A stretch of 64,000 bases of DNA from the human T2T-CHM13v2.0 reference genome, Homo sapiens. Made by a program: the position numbers and the translations under genes. How positions within the stretch are numbered: position 1 is the stretch's first letter; every line of letters begins with the position of its first letter. The notes under the pieces are model-generated. The model searched no databases and was not told where the DNA came from. It saw nothing but the letters and a program-made list of their open reading frames with translations. This document shows positions 1-39,000 of this stretch, piece by piece. The stretch lies in NCBI RefSeq assembly GCF_009914755.1, contig NC_060936.1. One strand, 5' to 3'.

Positions 1-32
1 CAGCGGGGCCACCCGAGCAGGATTACCCAGAG
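1..32 (+). CDS. MUC19: MUC19 PTS exon, partial (...[10 protein letters not shown])
   Basis: Donor g|gtgagc; paralogous to 4916-4969. Confidence 0.8.
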
Positions 33-3000
33 GTGAGCTTGGCAGACTGAGACCTGGGGCTCTCATCATCTCTCTATCAGGGTGGGTACAGGGAACAAAT
101 AATGTGAACGCATTTGAAGGAAGGGCCTGCATTTTCTCCTCAGCCATATTGTGTCATATCAACCTTGGTCAGATATTAGACTTGTAAATTTCATGACTTG
201 GATTGTCAGCCAAGCTGTCTGCACTATTCTAGTTTATGGAGACATTATTTTTTTCTGATTAAACATATTAGAAAATATTTCATATATTCCAACCTTCCAG
301 GACTTCCTATTCCCTTACCCAGCCTTTCCACTCACAGCTTGATACTTTTTATCATTTTTCTCATATACTTACACATGATGTTTGTTTCCTCTCTCCCCTC
401 ACTAGAAAGCTTCAGGAAGACAACTGATTATTAAAATGCCCCAAGTTGTATCACACAGTCCTACTTATAAATATAAACAATGATTTATATCTCCTGTAGG
501 TACCTCTGTCACACCAGAGGGATATGTTCCTGGAAAGGAAACAGGTCAGGGTGATTTAAAGCCCTATTCCCCGCTTGCCTCAGTGAAAGGGTATCCCGGC
601 AGCAACCTATCCATCGTGCGGGCCTGGAAAATGAAATGATAGGAAGGTGATCATTTTCCATTCTCTACAGAAACAGTGTCCACATGAGAGGGCTTCCAGT
701 GCTTTAGGGCTACATTGATGCTTCCAAGTTTAATTGGAGACAAAATGCTCTGTTGCTTTATTTCCTTCCCCCCAACTTTTTTTTTTTTTTTGGCATTTTA
801 GGTACCACTGGAGAATTTTCTGGAACGAACTTTATATCTGGAAGTTCTAACACAGGTAGCTTAACAAGAAGTAAATTTTTATTTAATGTCAGCTGTCATA
901 TTTCTTTTATGGCTTCTATGGTAAAGTAATATCCCAATATCTTCTTCCAGTATTCTAAATTCCCAGCCTTTTTCATTCTCCTCTTTCTTCCATCAGAGGC
1001 CACCACTTCCACAGAAGGGACAGGTACTTCTGGAACTGGATTCAAAATTGGTGAGAAGAAGCAACCCATGATGTGGCATCATAATTATTAGGTCTCTCAA
1101 GCTTTTCTTGAGAGAGTTTGTGTTTATTTTATTTAGGGACAATGCAAGTGATTCAAAATAGATTTGCTGGTGGAGATACTTTTTTTAAAATCTACTAATT
1201 TTAAAATGGAGCATTACTGTTCCATTTCCGAGGATGGGATGGAATTTCTCCATTTGTGTTACAACTATTGCTAGCAGTTTAGGTGGAATTCAGAAAGTTT
1301 TCAGTGTGTGTATGTGAAACAGAAAAGAGCCCCATGGACCCAGGACACATGCATTTATAAGTGTATATGTGAACAAAAATGCCGGCTCAGTATTTTCTTT
1401 CTTATGTCTCAAGTTTTAATACATTTAAACCCTTTTTTCCCTCTTCTTTCTACCTCACAGCAGGCATCACTTCTGCCCCAGGGAAACAAGCAGGTGAGCA
1501 TTGGGGAAATGTATCTAGTTTTGCTTTTATCAAATTTCCAGGTGTGCCTGAAGTTGGGAACAATTTCTATGTGCTTTGGTTTGAATTGTTGAAAGCAAGC
1601 AAATACATGTAGTTCACCATCTGCCTCATGCTCAGTGAGAGATTTCTGTGGTGGCATATAAATAAATAAATATATACATACATAGAGCATATTCCTTTTA
1701 GATTCAGTTCTTCATTTGATTTACTCATTTACCATGATCACCTCAGTCTCTTTGTGTTTCAGGCACCTCTGGGGTATCTCTTGCCACAACAGTTGCCCCT
1801 GGAAGCTTCAGCACAGGTGAGTCCACAGTGTGGTGGGGAATCCTTTCATGGGTACTTGCTGTGATAATATGATTTTCCTTTTGGTGATTTTATGCAGAAT
1901 AACCACCTTTCCATTTTAAGTCCCCTAAATCTTTTCTATTTATGTTCTTCCTCTCTTCGCAGCCACAACTTCTTCTGGAGCAAGTGGAATAACTAGGGCT
2001 GGCCCCACCTCAGGTAAGCACTGACGAATCACTACCTGCCTCCCAGTAGACAACGTTGCCTGAATCACATCTACTGCTTGTACTGTCTGTGAAGAGCATT
2101 TTTCTGAAGAAAGATTATCACATAGGCAAGATTTTATCTAATAACTGAAGGCCAGACACTCAAACTTTTTAACTTTCCTTTCCTCTGCTTCAAGGAAACT
2201 TCATCATGGAGCCAAGGCACTGAGAATCAGTTAGGAGATTGAAGATAAATGTTTTTCTTCCTCTCATTGATATTTAAGTGAAGTGATTGAGTTATTGACA
2301 TTTTATTCATTAAATATTCCATGAGATACAAATGATGTGTAGAAAATATATATAGATTAACTCTTGTTTCTAGAAACCTCTGAACAGAGCTTGTTGACAC
2401 ATTGAGGAAACACATAGTTTTCTTATCCCCATCCTAGGCCATTCTCTTTCTCATTATGGGTGAAGAATTGAGATATTGATTCTTATTTCTAATTCCACAA
2501 TGTAATTACTACACACTGGTAGTCACCGGCAAAATTTTTTCTCATGGAAAGTCTAATACTTAAAGCAATAAATAATGATGATAATAGTAATGAGCGTATT
2601 GATCATTTATAATTTCCTTGCTATGTACATATTGTGTACGGCCTTTACATACCTTATTACCATTGCAACTACCTAAGGTCCAAAGAAGACCCATGAGTTA
2701 AAAATGGACAATTAAACTTGGTCTTGAAGATAAACACTTTTACATGGAAAAGGGTTTCTTTTCTGACTTAGTAGTAGATGATAAGACATTTTGAATTGTA
2801 TTTGTCTCATGTAGTCTCATCAGCTTAACGCACCTCTCTTCCTTCATACTCAATTAATTTTGGTTTTCTCTCCATCTTTAAGAGACCACAACTTCCCTAG
2901 GAGGAAGTGGTACCACTGGAGCAGAAATAAAATCAGGTGAAGATTTGGGTATTTTCATTATTTATTGTTACAGTTTGATTCCAAGTTCATGGATTTCTTA

Positions 3001-36000: not shown

Positions 36001-39000
36001 TATTTTCTCTTGTATTTATGCCTAATTGATCTTCTTTCTCTCCTGTTGCTGGTTTCTGTTAATTTGCTAAGCATCCATAATTAGCACCTGGCTTAGCCTC
36101 CCTACGTAGAGTTGGAGACATTTGATTACCCAAATTTCCATACCTTTAATTCATTTTGTAATCTATATTTTGGGCCTATTAGTTGTTGGGATCACTTTAC
36201 CTAAACATGTAGAAATTTTGAGTTCTTTTCAAATATTGTGTTGCTCCTAGGTCAGCCTTTTTCTTGGTAGGTTGATATACATATACACACACACACATAT
36301 GTATACATATATGTGTGTATATGTGTGTATATATATATACACACATATATATATATCAACCTACCAAGAAAAACCTACCAAGAAAAACATATATATATTT
36401 AAACAGAGTCTTGCTCTGCTGCCCAGGCTGGAGTGCAATGGCACTGTCTCGGCTCACTGCAAGCTCTGCCTCTTGGGTTCAAGCAATTCTCCTGCCTCAG
36501 CCTCCCTAGTAGCTGGGACTGCAGGCAGGCACCACCATGCCCGTCTAATTTTTGTATTTTTTGTAGAGACGAGGTTTCACCATGTTGGCCAGGCTGGTCT
36601 CAAACTCCTGGCCTTAAGTGATCTGCCCACCTTGGCCTCCCAAAGTGCTGCAATTTACAGGCGTGAGCCACTGCATCTGACCAGATTGAATACAATATTC
36701 ATTTTGTTTTTAGAAGTTTTGGAAAAGAATTTGAAATTTATGAGGGAATTGTTCGATTGACCAAAATATGTGACGTGTAAAGGCTAAAAAAGATACATAT
36801 TTCCAGTTTAAAGCATTTGTTGGGGGAGAAGTTAGAGCAAAATTGAAGTATTTCAAGAAGATAAGGAGAATAAAAGTTTTTAAATGACTAAAACTGGGTA
36901 ATTAATAATACTCATTTTATACTGTAGCAGAATTATTTTTTTCCCTTTTTAAATCTCTTTTATTGTTCTATTCATTAGATCTGCCTTCAAAAAATTTTTG
37001 AAGAGTTTACCTTGATGTTTTCTCCTTTTGATACTTATATTTTTCTCTCATTAAAATGTGAGGTCCAAAGGAAGCACTGTACAGTGGAATTTCAAATGCA
37101 GCGAGGAGCAGGAAGGGGGGATAGATGGGAATATATCTATTTGTAAGACTAGCTATGTAGACAATTATTTTCAGCAATAGAATAATGAATTAGATAACTA
37201 TAATTGCCCCAATACTATTCCAGTAACTTCAGAGACTAACTTAAGGTTCCTGTTTTTACACAGAATGTCTAGCCTCACTTCCACCAGCTCCAGGTAATAA
37301 TTCCACGACTTCAGAATTGTTCCACATTAATGGTTCCTCTTGTCAATCAAATTTCAGAGGTCACGCTAATAAAAGTCACTGGCCATGGAAATGTTATAAA
37401 ATAGCAAAACATGTATTGGATTAACTTAGCTTTTATTCACCAAATAGTGAGTAATAGTTCATTTCCTCCTTCACAAACCAATGAAGCCAATCCAAACAAA
37501 TATACCTTGTTACTTAGATCAAAGCAAGGTTTACCTACTAAATGTTTCATATAATTATGATACCTTAACCAAAATATTATCACTTGATAGTGAGCATCTT
37601 TTTAAACTAGATAATTCCAACTTGAGGGATGAGCTGTAGTAGAAAAAAAAATCCATTTAGCCAGAGATAAGTAATTTTAGAGAACTTTAAGTCCCTACCA
37701 TTCTCAAGACAATGTGGTGTGCTTTGCAGTGAGCAAAAAAAAATTACTAAAAAATAATTCTCTGACCATAGTACATAGTGGGAGAAGGAAGGTCTTCAAA
37801 GACATAGGCAATTTTCATATCAGGCAGAAAATAAATTTCCAAGTAAAAATATAAACTATGTATTATATATAGAGTGCATATTGTATGTCACTTGTATATT
37901 TTAAGGTATCCCCAAGAATTTCTTTTTTTAAATTTTATTATTATTATACTTTAAGTTTTAGGGTACATGTGCACTATGTGCAGGTTTGTTACATATGTAT
38001 ACATGTGCCATGTTGGTGTGCTGCACCCATTAACTCGTCATTTAGCATTAGGTATATCTAGGAATTTCTTTACAGTATTGGAATTGGAGAACACAAATAG
38101 ACCAGTCCAGGGCATGTAAATGAGAGAAGTGAGACAAAGTTGAGAAAGTCAGTTTGAGTCACAATATGAGAGACCTCAAAAGCTAGAATGCTAGAATAAA
38201 CTGTTTGTTTTACACAACTATAAGGGGCTATCAAAGTAGTAAATGAGATGAGAATTAGGCTTTAGAAAAATTACATTACCTCATTGGATCAGAAAGAGAT
38301 ATGAGTCAGAATAACTCCCTTAAAAAAGCCAGTAGAGTATGCTAGATCAAAACTTTAATAAGATCTTGGAGTGGCATTTTAGCAAGTAGAATAAGGAAAG
38401 GAAGAAATGAATGTGAGTGTAAAGATACAGGATTTGGCAGTAGATTTGACGCCAGTGCTAGAAGGAAGAAATCAAATGGCTCCTTGATTTTAAGCTTGAA
38501 TGATTGAAAGTATAGTTCTATCCTTAGAGAAGGAAGCCAATCTAGAAGAGAAGCTGGTTTTGGGGGGAAGATGATAAAATATGTTGTGTGCACATCAAGT
38601 TTCGGGTTTCTATAGGTCTGCCAGGATTCTGTCTATAGGTTGAGAGAGAACTGGCTCCAAAGCTATGAGAGAGGTCTGGGCTGGAGCTGGGCATTTTAGA
38701 GCCATTCTTTTGATGTTATGGTGCACATTGTGGAGACAGAAGAAAGAATTAGAGCCAAAATGAGAGGCAGTAAGACAAACTGGCAGTGAAGACAAAAATT
38801 TCAGAGCATTAAATCTGAAGAAAGGAGAGCATTTTTCAAGAAGGTAAGAATGAAAAATGTCAACTATGGCACAGAAAAACTGAGAAAGGGCCCTTGGGTC
38901 TGGTAATTATGAAGCCATGGTGACTTGTAGGATTGGAAAAGCGGAAGTCAGACTGCAAAACAGTAAGTCAGTTAGTAGCCATAAGATTGATTGACCACTG

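What the first reader, a model, noticed from the sequence alone, without database searches (positions are those of the whole stretch)
1..37293. Frame-symmetric micro-exon cassette array: a splice-tunable mucin PTS domain
Seen: about 65 exons of 30-69 nt (mostly 54), every one phase 1-1 and a multiple of 3. Established: most gel-forming mucins (MUC2, MUC5AC, MUC5B) encode the PTS region mainly in one giant exon. Inference: any subset of these exons can be skipped without a frameshift. Glycodomain length and composition could then be set combinatorially per transcript, and exon loss would be nearly free, which fits the many dead exons found. The multi-exon structure of MUC19 is known; regulated combinatorial use is my hypothesis.
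Basis: partly seen in the sequence, partly recalled or inferred. Interest (0 to 1): 0.75.

Follow-up and report, generated by a model that had tools for sequence, protein, structure and literature searches.

The report
MUC19 frame-symmetric micro-exon array
This stretch is the already-annotated tail of the human mucin gene MUC19, where about sixty tiny same-frame exons spell a sugar-carrying domain; any of them could be dropped without breaking the reading frame, but whether cells use that choice is untested and the sequence looks more like always-included exons.

Summary
Window 1-37293 carries 58 whole annotated MUC19 exons plus one cut at the window start. All 58 are multiples of 3 and phase 1-1, and 37 are 54 nt (range 30-63, none of 69). 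Five more intact-looking, in-frame exon candidates are not annotated, and about ten dead relics exist.

There are 145 exon-like elements, all on the + strand, from about -38.5 kb to +34.8 kb. They include six copies of a 12-exon, 4.6-4.9 kb block. A ~13.8 kb central VNTR exon lies upstream, so MUC19 also has a giant PTS exon.

Frame-safe skipping is arithmetically true: 56 of 58 exons end in G and 2 in A, so no new junction can create a stop. Exon loss is tolerated: 8 of 65 slots died by small mutations, four by a splice-site change alone.

Regulated combinatorial use is not supported by the sequence. Splice sites are strong, introns short, and intron flanks no more conserved between paralogues than deep intron. 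The most likely reading is growth by exon and block duplication, with length tuned over evolutionary time.

The idea was published for chicken Muc13 in 2006. Human MUC19 may lack a complete ORF.

The parts
1..37293 (+). 3' half of the MUC19 micro-exon array: 58 whole annotated exons plus one cut exon, all phase 1-1. They encode 981 residues (T 23.6%, G 17.3%, S 14.5%, A 9.2%, P 5.6%); exons make up 7.9% of the DNA.
33..4969 (+). Block U1 of the 12-exon higher-order repeat (exon families Z, A-K). Family G is destroyed and family Z is intact-looking but unannotated.
4970..9664 (+). Block U2. Family C is dead and family Z is intact-looking but unannotated.
9665..15130 (+). Block U3. Family A is dead (donor lost). 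Families H-K are missing; interspersed repeat 13297-15120 lies in their place.
   Evidence: hub repeat mask
15131..18603 (+). Block U4, the last and partial block. Families Z, J and K are absent; the family I exon is deviant.
18770..37293 (+). Older, more diverged part of the array, not in the 4.7-kb block repeat. It still follows the short / 'GTTG..APGSSNT' / 'EATTS..' exon order. The last three exons (35074, 35297, 37264) no longer match the class profiles.
500..544 (+). Unannotated 45-nt exon candidate (family Z, paralogue of annotated 10145-10189): tag|..CAG|gtcagg, open in phase 1 ([15 protein letters not shown]).
   Evidence: HMM E 3.7e-12
5446..5490 (+). Unannotated 45-nt exon candidate (family Z), open in phase 1 ([15 protein letters not shown]).
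   Evidence: HMM E 1.1e-11
31552..31605 (+). Unannotated 54-nt exon candidate: cag|..CAG|gtgagt, [18 protein letters not shown]. Donor score ranks 47 of 58 and acceptor 24 of 58 among annotated exons. It sits where the class order expects an 'EATT' exon.
   Evidence: (E 5.8e-15)
32355..32405 (+). Unannotated 51-nt exon candidate: cag|..CAG|gtatgt, [17 protein letters not shown].
   Evidence: (E 2.5e-13)
21981..22016 (+). Weaker unannotated 36-nt candidate: tag|..TAG|gtaaat, [12 protein letters not shown].
   Evidence: (E 0.0019)
6417..6446 (+). Dead 33-nt exon (family C, block U2): 3-nt deletion, in-frame TAG, donor context lost.
10430..10483 (+). Dead 54-nt exon (family A, block U3): donor G|GT changed to C|AT. 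The ORF is still open ([18 protein letters not shown]).
   Evidence: (E 6.6e-17)
3569..3718 (+). Site of the family G 33-nt exon in block U1. The exon body is replaced by a CT-rich simple repeat; only AG|gtaaat remains.
   Evidence: hub mask 3354-3664
19214..19253 (+). Relic of an 'EATT'-class exon: acceptor kept, 3' half and donor lost.
   Evidence: (E 3.2e-7)
21304..21342 (+). Relic of a 'GTTG'-class exon whose 5' half is displaced by the repeat masked at 21022-21299. The donor CAG|gtgagc is kept.
   Evidence: (E 9.1e-10)
22483..22521 (+). Relic of an 'EATT'-class exon, cut off by a (TA)n / repeat at 22527-22971.
   Evidence: (E 3e-6)
28982..29045 (+). Weak relic of a 'GTTG'-class exon inside the 6.4-kb intron; no acceptor AG.
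   Evidence: (E 0.0017)
12083..12137 (+). Old relic shared with 7461-7504 (block U2) and about -6768..-6718 (block Um1). It was dead before the block was duplicated.
18550..18603 (+). Annotated exon with a GG (not GT) donor in this assembly. An in-frame GT donor lies 9 nt upstream, giving an 18550-18594 exon of 45 nt.
39246..44379 (+). Context: seven C-terminal cysteine-rich exons that are not frame-symmetric. The last one matches the Pfam cystine-knot domain.

Best explanation
The region is the 3' half of a ~72-kb array of about 140 tandemly duplicated micro-exons in human MUC19. The array lies between the gene's giant central VNTR exon and its cysteine-rich C-terminus. It encodes a Thr/Gly/Ser-rich, non-identical-repeat part of the mucin (O-glycosylated) domain.

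The array grew by unequal crossing-over. First came an exon set of a short (33-48 nt) exon, a 54-nt 'GTTG..APGSSNT' exon and a 54-nt 'EATTS..' exon. Later came multi-exon blocks of 3 to 4.9 kb. Only exons that are multiples of 3 and have the same phase on both sides can be duplicated or lost inside an ORF. The uniform phase 1-1 is therefore a condition and by-product of this growth, not evidence of regulated splicing.

The same symmetry, plus a G as last base of nearly every exon, makes single-exon loss harmless. Domain length and composition are therefore tuned over evolutionary time by exon birth and death. The amino-acid sequence drifts almost neutrally, while frame, openness and splice sites are kept.

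In the transcript, most exons are probably spliced constitutively. A few optional cassettes are likely.

Shown: geometry, phases, block repeat, dead exons, near-neutral dN/dS, strong splice sites. Inferred: the duplication mechanism, constitutive splicing, glycosylation.
For: 1. All 58 whole exons are phase 1-1 and multiples of 3. 56 of 58 end in G and 2 in A.
2. Self-BLAST shows four tandem copies at offsets of 4.6-4.96 kb with 74-84% identity, introns included. Two more copies lie upstream in the same assembly.
3. Over 124 kb, class HMMs hit 152 times on the + strand and 0 times on the - strand at E<=1e-3. The hits merge into 145 elements from -38495 to +34789, and 91 of them have a 54-nt best solution.
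4. Dead exons were copied along with their blocks: relics at 7461-7504, 12083-12137 and about -6768, and recurrent unopenable elements at -22457, -21384, -18463 and -15507.
5. In the 6 x 12 slot matrix, 57 slots look alive, 8 died by small mutations and 7 are absent through large deletions or replacement. Four of the 8 lost only a splice dinucleotide and keep an open frame.
6. Pooled dN/dS between paralogous exons is 0.84, range 0.49-1.17. Exon identity is 0.80-0.875 against 0.72-0.83 for intron in pairs without U3.
7. The real frame is open in 58 of 58 exons, the other frames in 32 and 27 of 58.
8. Constitutive-type marks: U1 match averages 7.05 of 9, the acceptor tract is 83% pyrimidine, median intron is 408 nt with 17 of 58 under 170 nt, and intron flanks are not extra conserved. 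The criteria come from PMC4317164.
9. Composition is T 23.6, G 17.3, S 14.5%, like the central exon at T 23.4, G 21.3, S 13.8%.
Against: Five intact-looking, in-frame, class-typical exon candidates are missing from the single RefSeq transcript. 31552-31605 scores as well as a typical annotated exon. Family Z is annotated in block U3 but not in U1 or U2, although their splice sites are nearly the same. This is what optional cassettes would look like, so 'constitutive' may be wrong for a subset.

Flank conservation was measured between paralogues, not orthologues, so regulatory elements specific to single exons would be missed. Splice strength was scored with crude measures (a consensus count and a PWM built from the array itself), not MaxEnt or SpliceAI. 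No transcript data were available. The states of upstream blocks are my predictions, because no annotation was supplied for them.

Deaths are uneven: 0 of 24 in families B, D, E, F against 8 of 41 in the others (Fisher p=0.022). Exons are therefore not all equally dispensable.
Confidence: 0.65

Rival explanations
1. One reading: the array is a regulated, combinatorial cassette system. Cells choose subsets of exons per transcript to set the length and composition of the glycodomain.
For: Skipping any subset is frame-safe and cannot create a junction stop. Five intact-looking candidates are absent from the reference transcript. A passage in PMC13345508 speaks of 'the longest isoform' of MUC19. 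From memory only, Zhu et al. 2011 reported about 20 splice variants in a 5' variable region of small exons; that paper is not held. Regulated skipping in a comparable exon array is known for titin (PMC3575840, abstract start).
Against: There is no sequence mark of regulated alternative exons. Splice sites are strong, introns short, and intron flanks at 0.72-0.75 identity match deep intron at 0.73-0.78. Symmetry is fully explained by origin through duplication. RefSeq lists one transcript (hub table). None of the 18 papers holding 'MUC19' and 'exon skipping' appears from its title or abstract to deal with this array; two were opened at the MUC19 passages. Human MUC19 may not make a full protein.
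Confidence: 0.12
2. Unregulated optional use: a minority of exons (short ones, those with weaker sites, or allele-specific splice-site variants) are included variably by noise or genotype. This is tolerated because it is in frame, and it has no tissue programme.
For: The unannotated candidates have the weaker scores: Z-U1 acceptor ranks 2 of 58, and Z-U2 and 32355-32405 donors rank 2 of 58. The GG donor at 18604-18605 has an in-frame GT 9 nt upstream. 14 exons have a second in-frame AG 3 nt away that passes the same score cut. Exons of 51 nt or less tend to be skipped (PMC4317164 passages). Deaths fall on the families other than B, D, E and F, which include the short Z, C and G (0 of 24 against 8 of 41, p=0.022).
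Against: No transcript evidence either way. 31552-31605 has strong sites yet is unannotated. In that case a gap in the annotation is as likely an explanation as optional use.
Confidence: 0.3
3. Human-specific decay: MUC19 is a polymorphic or dying gene in humans, so the array here is a relic drifting neutrally and its present layout has no function.
For: RefSeq labels it 'gene/pseudogene' (hub). PMC13345508 reports no complete ORF in any long-read haplotype (passage). PMC4948705 says protein expression in humans is debated (passage). In this assembly the central exon carries one in-frame TAA, and two annotated splice sites are GG. dN/dS is 0.84.
Against: All 58 annotated exons are still open in frame, against 32 and 27 of 58 in the other frames. 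57 of 58 donors and 58 of 58 acceptors are canonical. Any decay is therefore recent. dN/dS near 1 is also expected for a composition-only mucin domain. The paralogue comparison averages over the long time since the block duplications, not over the human lineage.
Confidence: 0.3

Closest known systems
Chicken Muc13 multi-exon PTS domain (Lang, Hansson, Samuelsson 2006, PMC1552070; passages read)
   Same: A mucin PTS domain spread over many exons, each encoding a repeat unit. [quoted passage not shown]
   Different: It is a transmembrane mucin, and its exon-encoded repeats are nearly identical. Here the exons are non-identical, fall into three classes, sit in a gel-forming mucin, and lie next to a giant VNTR exon.
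MUC19 / Muc19-Smgc gene structure (Chen 2004, Culp 2004, Zhu 2011; not held, recalled)
   Same: The same gene. The many-exon structure is annotated (hub: 186 exons). Smgc is called a splice variant of Muc19 in mouse (PMC7815129 passages). From memory, the 5' variable region of small exons has about 20 splice variants.
   Different: The documented alternative splicing concerns the 5' end. I found nothing on inclusion levels of the 3' array.
Titin PEVK exon array (PMC6469411 passages; PMC3575840 abstract start)
   Same: About 113 short exons encode a disordered low-complexity domain. The array grew by tandem exon and block duplication, some of it LINE-associated, with exon gain and loss between species. 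Domain length is set by regulated exon skipping (Rbm20).
   Different: It is an intracellular spring rather than a secreted glycodomain. Regulated skipping is proven for titin and not for MUC19. I did not check PEVK exon phases.
CD44 variable exons v1-v10 (PMC2199896, abstract start); CD45 exons 4-6 (recalled)
   Same: Cassette exons in an extracellular, O-glycan-bearing region are used in combinations.
   Different: There are ten or fewer exons, each unique, and no tandem-duplicated array. Regulation is well documented.
Schistosome micro-exon genes (PMC10526429 passages)
   Same: Secreted proteins built from runs of very short exons, mostly multiples of three, with alternative splicing proposed as a source of variation.
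   Different: The exons are mostly 15 bp, with 10-20 per gene. They are unrelated in sequence and are not a mucin domain.
54-bp exons of fibrillar collagen genes (recalled, not checked here)
   Same: An array of exons with a 54-nt modal length, built by duplication, all frame-symmetric.
   Different: As recalled, collagen exons are phase 0-0 and encode Gly-X-Y. The peptides here have no Gly-X-Y run and are phase 1-1. The shared length of 54 is probably coincidence.

Membership tests
MUC19 mucin-domain coding array | Lies inside the annotated MUC19 transcript, on its strand, in its reading frame | tested here: met
   Joined in order, the hub exon table gives one open frame ending at the annotated stop at 44379.
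MUC19 mucin-domain coding array | Ser/Thr-rich, low-complexity, cysteine-poor sequence | tested here: met
   981 residues: S+T 38.1%, G 17.3%, P 5.6%, 1 Cys. This is close to the central VNTR exon.
MUC19 mucin-domain coding array | Followed by the gel-forming-mucin C-terminus (VWC, cystine knot) | tested here: met
   The last exon matches Pfam Cys_knot PF00007 at 25.9 bits against a cutoff of 24. Single VWC-region exons gave no Pfam match. UniProt VWFC/CTCK domains are named in a PMC10557577 figure legend.
MUC19 mucin-domain coding array | Actually O-glycosylated and secreted in humans | not testable with these tools
   Protein expression in humans is debated (PMC4948705 passage). No complete ORF in long-read haplotypes (PMC13345508 passage).
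Frame-symmetric cassette-exon array (skippable without frameshift) | Every exon length is a multiple of 3, with the same phase on both sides | tested here: met
   58 of 58.
Frame-symmetric cassette-exon array (skippable without frameshift) | New junctions create no stop codon | tested here: met
   The junction codon starts with the last base of the upstream exon, which is G in 56 and A in 2 of 58. All stop codons start with T.
Frame-symmetric cassette-exon array (skippable without frameshift) | Exons seen both included and skipped in transcripts | not testable with these tools
   No transcript collection is available. The only hint is five intact-looking candidates missing from the one RefSeq transcript.
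Regulated alternative micro-exons (criteria of Li et al. 2015, PMC4317164) | Highly conserved intronic flanks | tested here: inconclusive
   Between paralogous blocks, identity at 11-100 nt from exons is 0.72-0.75 and in deep intron 0.73-0.78, so there is no excess. The published criterion uses orthologues, which I could not align.
Regulated alternative micro-exons (criteria of Li et al. 2015, PMC4317164) | Splice sites and enhancers not stronger than in ordinary exons (constitutive micro-exons have stronger sites and shorter introns) | tested here: not met
   Mean U1 match 7.05 of 9; 44 of 58 exons end in CAG; pyrimidine tract 0.83; median intron 408 nt. These are crude scores. No MaxEnt score and no enhancer density were computed.
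Tandem exon/block duplication array (titin-PEVK-like growth) | Paralogous multi-exon blocks with introns aligned | tested here: met
   Six blocks of 4.6-4.9 kb at 68-83% intron identity.
Tandem exon/block duplication array (titin-PEVK-like growth) | Exon gain and loss between copies | tested here: met
   15 of 72 slots are dead or absent. Relics were copied with their blocks.
Fibrillar-collagen-type 54-bp exon array | Gly-X-Y triplets, phase 0-0 (features recalled) | tested here: not met
   The phase is 1-1 and the exon peptides have no Gly-X-Y periodicity.

The most novel reading that the evidence does not exclude
In MUC19-secreting glands of species where the gene is fully active (pig, cow, horse, perhaps some human haplotypes), the ~140-exon 3' array is used combinatorially under tissue or state control. 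It would then be a titin-PEVK-like splice dial for the length and O-glycan load of a gel-forming mucin. The five unannotated intact exons here (500-544, 5446-5490, 21981-22016, 31552-31605, 32355-32405) would be the visible tip of that system.
Probability: 0.12. Interest if true: 0.6.

Novelty: already known. Interest (0 to 1): 0.3.

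Why it matters
Mucin length and glycan density set the physical properties of mucus. Until now, length variation has been ascribed to VNTR alleles. A per-transcript length dial would be a second, non-genetic layer of variation.

For MUC19 the exon structure is already annotated, and the splicing idea was voiced for another mucin in 2006. What this work adds is limited but concrete:
- The array is about 72 kb with about 140 elements.
- It contains a six-copy, 12-exon block.
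- A census shows how exons die, mostly by splice-site hits that leave the frame open.
- Five specific exon candidates and their junctions can be checked in existing RNA-seq.

The work also flags that in this assembly the gene has an in-frame stop in the central exon and two non-canonical splice sites. That tempers any functional claim for humans.

Tried and rejected
1. Key MUC19 papers are not held: Zhu 2011, Das 2010, Jiang 1998 on bovine submaxillary mucin, Das 2009. What I say about them is recalled and marked so. This includes the recalled ~47-residue non-identical repeat of bovine submaxillary mucin, which would equal 33+54+54 nt.
3. Literature searches for transcript evidence found nothing on inclusion of these exons:
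 - MUC19 + alternative splicing + exons: 42 papers, 25 listed.
 - MUC19 + splice variants / Smgc.
 - MUC19 + highly variable region / splicing variants.
 - MUC19 + exon counts / central exon.
 - A four-term search that returned no MUC19 paper among the 15 listed.
 - MUC19 + exon skipping: 18 of 18 listed, mostly circRNA reviews, none on this array by title or abstract.
 - MUC19 + micro-exon terms: 40 of 336 listed, only the TOGA2 preprint holds 'MUC19'.
 I read listings and selected passages only, not the supplements.
4. Single C-terminal exons other than the last gave no Pfam hit: 3 of 4 queries empty.
5. TRF on L012 found no array. The VNTR lies in L013.
6. My automatic exon picker recovered 51 annotated exons exactly among 64 in-window elements and missed 7 of 58 (997, 18550, 19056, 31827, 35074, 35297, 37264). 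Upstream exon boundaries are therefore approximate.
7. A composition cut (S+T+G+A+P >= 0.6) proved too strict, passing 51 of 64 in the window. I did not use it for claims.
8. In one search, exon-column identity for pairs with block U3 is depressed by misaligned columns where U3 lacks exons. I quote the non-U3 pairs for that measure. dN/dS used coordinates, not the alignment.
9. I considered a collagen-like origin of the 54-nt length and rejected it (phase and sequence differ).
10. No vertebrate orthologue, EST or RNA-seq resource was reachable with the tools.

Full report
WHAT IS THERE. Using the hub's exon table on the window sequence, 1-37293 holds 58 whole MUC19 exons plus the last 32 nt of a 54-nt exon that starts at -21. 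The 58 lengths are 54 nt x37, 48 x6, 33 x6, 51 x4, 45 x2 and one each of 63, 42 and 30. All are multiples of 3. None is 69 nt. Counting back from the stop at 44379, every one of the 58 begins and ends in phase 1, and the joined exons read as one open frame. By chance, 58 of 58 multiples of 3 would occur at 2e-28. Of the seven C-terminal exons that follow, only one is a multiple of 3. All 58 acceptors are AG and 57 of 58 donors are GT. The real frame is open in 58 of 58 exons and the other two frames in 32 and 27. The encoded 981 residues are T 23.6%, G 17.3%, S 14.5%, A 9.2% and P 5.6%, with one cysteine. The count of 'about 65' is matched only if unannotated candidates are added.

EXON CLASSES AND EXTRA ELEMENTS. 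The exon peptides fall into three classes. These are a short exon (33-51 nt, e.g. [11 protein letters not shown]), a 54-nt '[14 protein letters not shown]' exon and a 54-nt 'EATTS..G..T' exon, mostly in that order. Profile HMMs of the three classes, built with 25 nt and 12 nt of flank, hit 12 unannotated places on the + strand at E<=0.002. They hit none on the - strand, where the best E is 0.0066.

Five of these places are intact-looking. Each has an AG acceptor and a GT donor, is a multiple of 3 and is open in phase 1: 500-544, 5446-5490, 21981-22016, 31552-31605 and 32355-32405. I scored them with a PWM built from the 58 annotated sites. The donor of 31552-31605 ranks 47 of 58 and its acceptor 24 of 58, so it is a typical array exon. 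The other four have one weak side each. 31552-31605 and 32355-32405 sit exactly where the class order expects them.

The remaining places are dead:
- 6417-6446: 3-nt deletion, in-frame TAG, donor lost.
- 10430-10483: donor G|GT changed to C|AT, frame still open.
- 19214-19253: 3' half lost.
- 21304-21342: 5' half displaced by the repeat masked at 21022-21299.
- 22483-22521: cut by a (TA)n repeat.
- 28982-29045: no acceptor.
- 7461-7504 and 12083-12137: paralogous old relics.

HIGHER-ORDER STRUCTURE AND TRUE EXTENT. Self-BLAST shows four tandem copies of a 4.6-4.96 kb unit over 1 to ~18600, at 74-84% identity with introns included. The window's own assembly could be searched. Two more copies lie just upstream. 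I fetched 60 kb upstream. Over the joined 124 kb the class HMMs hit 152 times on the + strand and never on the - strand at E<=1e-3. The hits merge into 145 elements from -38495 to +34789. Of these, 91 have a 54-nt best solution and 9 have no open AG..GT multiple-of-3 solution at all. The finding is therefore the 3' half of a ~72-kb array.

Upstream of the array, from -54943 to -41180, lies one long frame of 3322 + 1265 codons (T 23.4, G 21.3, S 13.8%), broken by a single TAA. It contains a 30-bp tandem repeat of 292 copies in locus L013 alone. This is the central VNTR exon that PMC10557577 calls a '~12kb coding exon'.

EXON BIRTH AND DEATH. I aligned the six blocks and followed 12 exon families, Z and A-K. 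Of 72 slots, 57 look alive, 8 died by small mutations and 7 are absent through large events. The large events are families H-K of block U3, where interspersed repeat 13297-15120 now lies, and the tail of block U4. Four of the eight small-mutation deaths changed only a splice dinucleotide and left length and frame intact: A in U0 and U3, C in U0, J in U0. Families B, D, E and F have 0 deaths in 24 slots and the others 8 in 41 (Fisher p=0.022). Exon boundaries also slide in steps of 3 or 6 nt between copies (families E and H). 14 exons carry a second in-frame AG 3 nt away that passes the same score cut. Some relics are shared by several blocks, so they were already dead when the block multiplied. 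States in the two upstream blocks are my predictions, because no annotation was supplied there.

CONSTRAINT. Between paralogous exons, pooled dN/dS is 0.84, range 0.49-1.17 over 15 block pairs. Exon identity is 0.80-0.875 against 0.72-0.83 for deep intron in pairs without U3. The amino-acid sequence therefore drifts almost freely. What is kept is the frame, openness and the splice sites; identity within 10 nt of exons is 0.80. This fits a domain where only composition matters.

DOES THE SEQUENCE SPEAK FOR REGULATED CASSETTE USE? The arithmetic is sound. 56 of 58 exons end in G and 2 in A, so any new junction codon starts with G or A. It can never be a stop, and it is set by the downstream exon. 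But symmetry is also the precondition for duplicating or losing an exon inside an ORF, so it follows from how the array grew.

Li et al. 2015 (PMC4317164, passages) report that about 81% of micro-exons are constitutive. Constitutive ones have stronger splice sites, shorter flanking introns and more enhancers. Alternative ones have highly conserved intron flanks. Here the mean U1 match is 7.05 of 9, 44 of 58 exons end in CAG, the acceptor tract is 83% pyrimidine, the median intron is 408 nt and 17 of 58 introns are under 170 nt. Identity 11-100 nt from exons (0.72-0.75) does not exceed deep intron (0.73-0.78). These marks point to constitutive splicing.

There are caveats. The measures are crude and the conservation was measured between paralogues. 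The five intact-looking unannotated candidates pull the other way. So does family Z, which is annotated in U3 but not in U1 or U2 although its sites are nearly the same. They may be optional cassettes or annotation gaps. I could reach no transcript data.

LITERATURE. Lang, Hansson and Samuelsson (PMC1552070, passages) described a multi-exon PTS domain in chicken Muc13. [quoted passage not shown] For the splicing of the MUC19 3' array I found nothing (listings and passages only). Smgc is called a splice variant of mouse Muc19 (PMC7815129). From memory only, Zhu et al. 2011 found about 20 splice variants in a 5' variable region; the paper is not held. Titin's PEVK region is the closest working analogue. 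It has about 113 short exons, block duplications and exon gain and loss (PMC6469411), and regulated skipping (PMC3575840, abstract start).

IS THE HUMAN GENE ALIVE? RefSeq says 'gene/pseudogene'. PMC13345508 found no complete MUC19 ORF in any long-read haplotype. PMC4948705 calls human protein expression debated. In this assembly I see the TAA in the central exon, a GG donor at 18604-18605 and a GG acceptor at 39244-39245. Yet the array exons are all open with canonical sites, so any decay is recent.

VERDICT. The feature is real and was accurately described, but it is already annotated. The best explanation (0.65) is an array grown by exon and block duplication. Its symmetry makes exon loss harmless and lets length evolve. 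The array is mostly spliced constitutively, with a few possible optional exons. Regulated combinatorial use remains possible (0.12) and is cheaply testable on the named junctions.

Noticed in passing
window 39244-39245 (acceptor of exon 39246-39277): The annotated 32-nt exon in the cysteine-rich C-terminus has GG instead of AG as its acceptor in this assembly. Skipping it would shift the frame before the cystine knot. I could not compare with GRCh38 or other haplotypes.
   Followed up: no
window 18604-18605: Exon 18550-18603 has a GG donor. A GT donor 9 nt upstream (after 18594, CAA|gtaaaa) would keep the frame and give a 45-nt exon. This exon also carries a 9-nt deletion and a diverged 3' end relative to its paralogues.
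   Followed up: partly
L013 5023-5025 (CHM13 chr12:40441023-40441025; window about -44977): A single in-frame TAA splits the ~13.8-kb central VNTR exon frame into 3322 and 1265 codons. The local repeat consensus reads GGA CTA where this copy reads GAA TAA. This fits the report that MUC19 has no complete ORF in long-read haplotypes (PMC13345508).
   Followed up: partly
window 27895-28001, - strand: A full-length U6 snRNA match (Rfam RF00026, 88.8 bits, model 1-105) lies inside the 6.4-kb intron. It is annotated as pseudogene RNU6-713P and was the only Rfam hit in the window.
   Followed up: yes
window 1464, 4168, 8421, 11104, 11562, 13254, 15999, 16490, 18075, 20326, 21495, 23333, 23841, 34736: 14 exons have a second in-frame AG 3 nt from the annotated acceptor (NAGNAG-like) that passes the same score cut. 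Family E has shifted between the two positions in different blocks (51 against 54 nt).
   Followed up: partly
window 20649-20708: A further open AG..GT segment (60, 45 or 36 nt; ..[15 protein letters not shown]) passes both splice-score cuts but gives no class-HMM hit at E<=10. It is possibly a decayed exon.
   Followed up: no
window 10484-10485 and about -3782 (block U0): The family A exon lost its donor by the same GT-to-AT change in two non-adjacent blocks (both read |atagctta). This could be shared ancestry or gene conversion between blocks.
   Followed up: no
upstream, about -30736, -22457, -21384, -18463, -15507 (L010-L012): A 'GTTG'-class element with no open AG..GT solution recurs at roughly 3-kb steps among intact exon pairs. 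A dead exon was carried along as a ~3-kb unit multiplied.
   Followed up: no
window 12971-13245 and 3569-3718: Two pyrimidine-rich simple or tandem repeats sit at exon acceptors. One abuts the acceptor of exon 13251-13283. The other has replaced the paralogous 33-nt exon in block U1.
   Followed up: partly
window 13587-15075 and 24971-26450: Two copies of the same interspersed repeat (75% identity over 1.5 kb, same strand). One occupies the place of four lost exons in block U3 and the other lies in the 6.4-kb intron.
   Followed up: no
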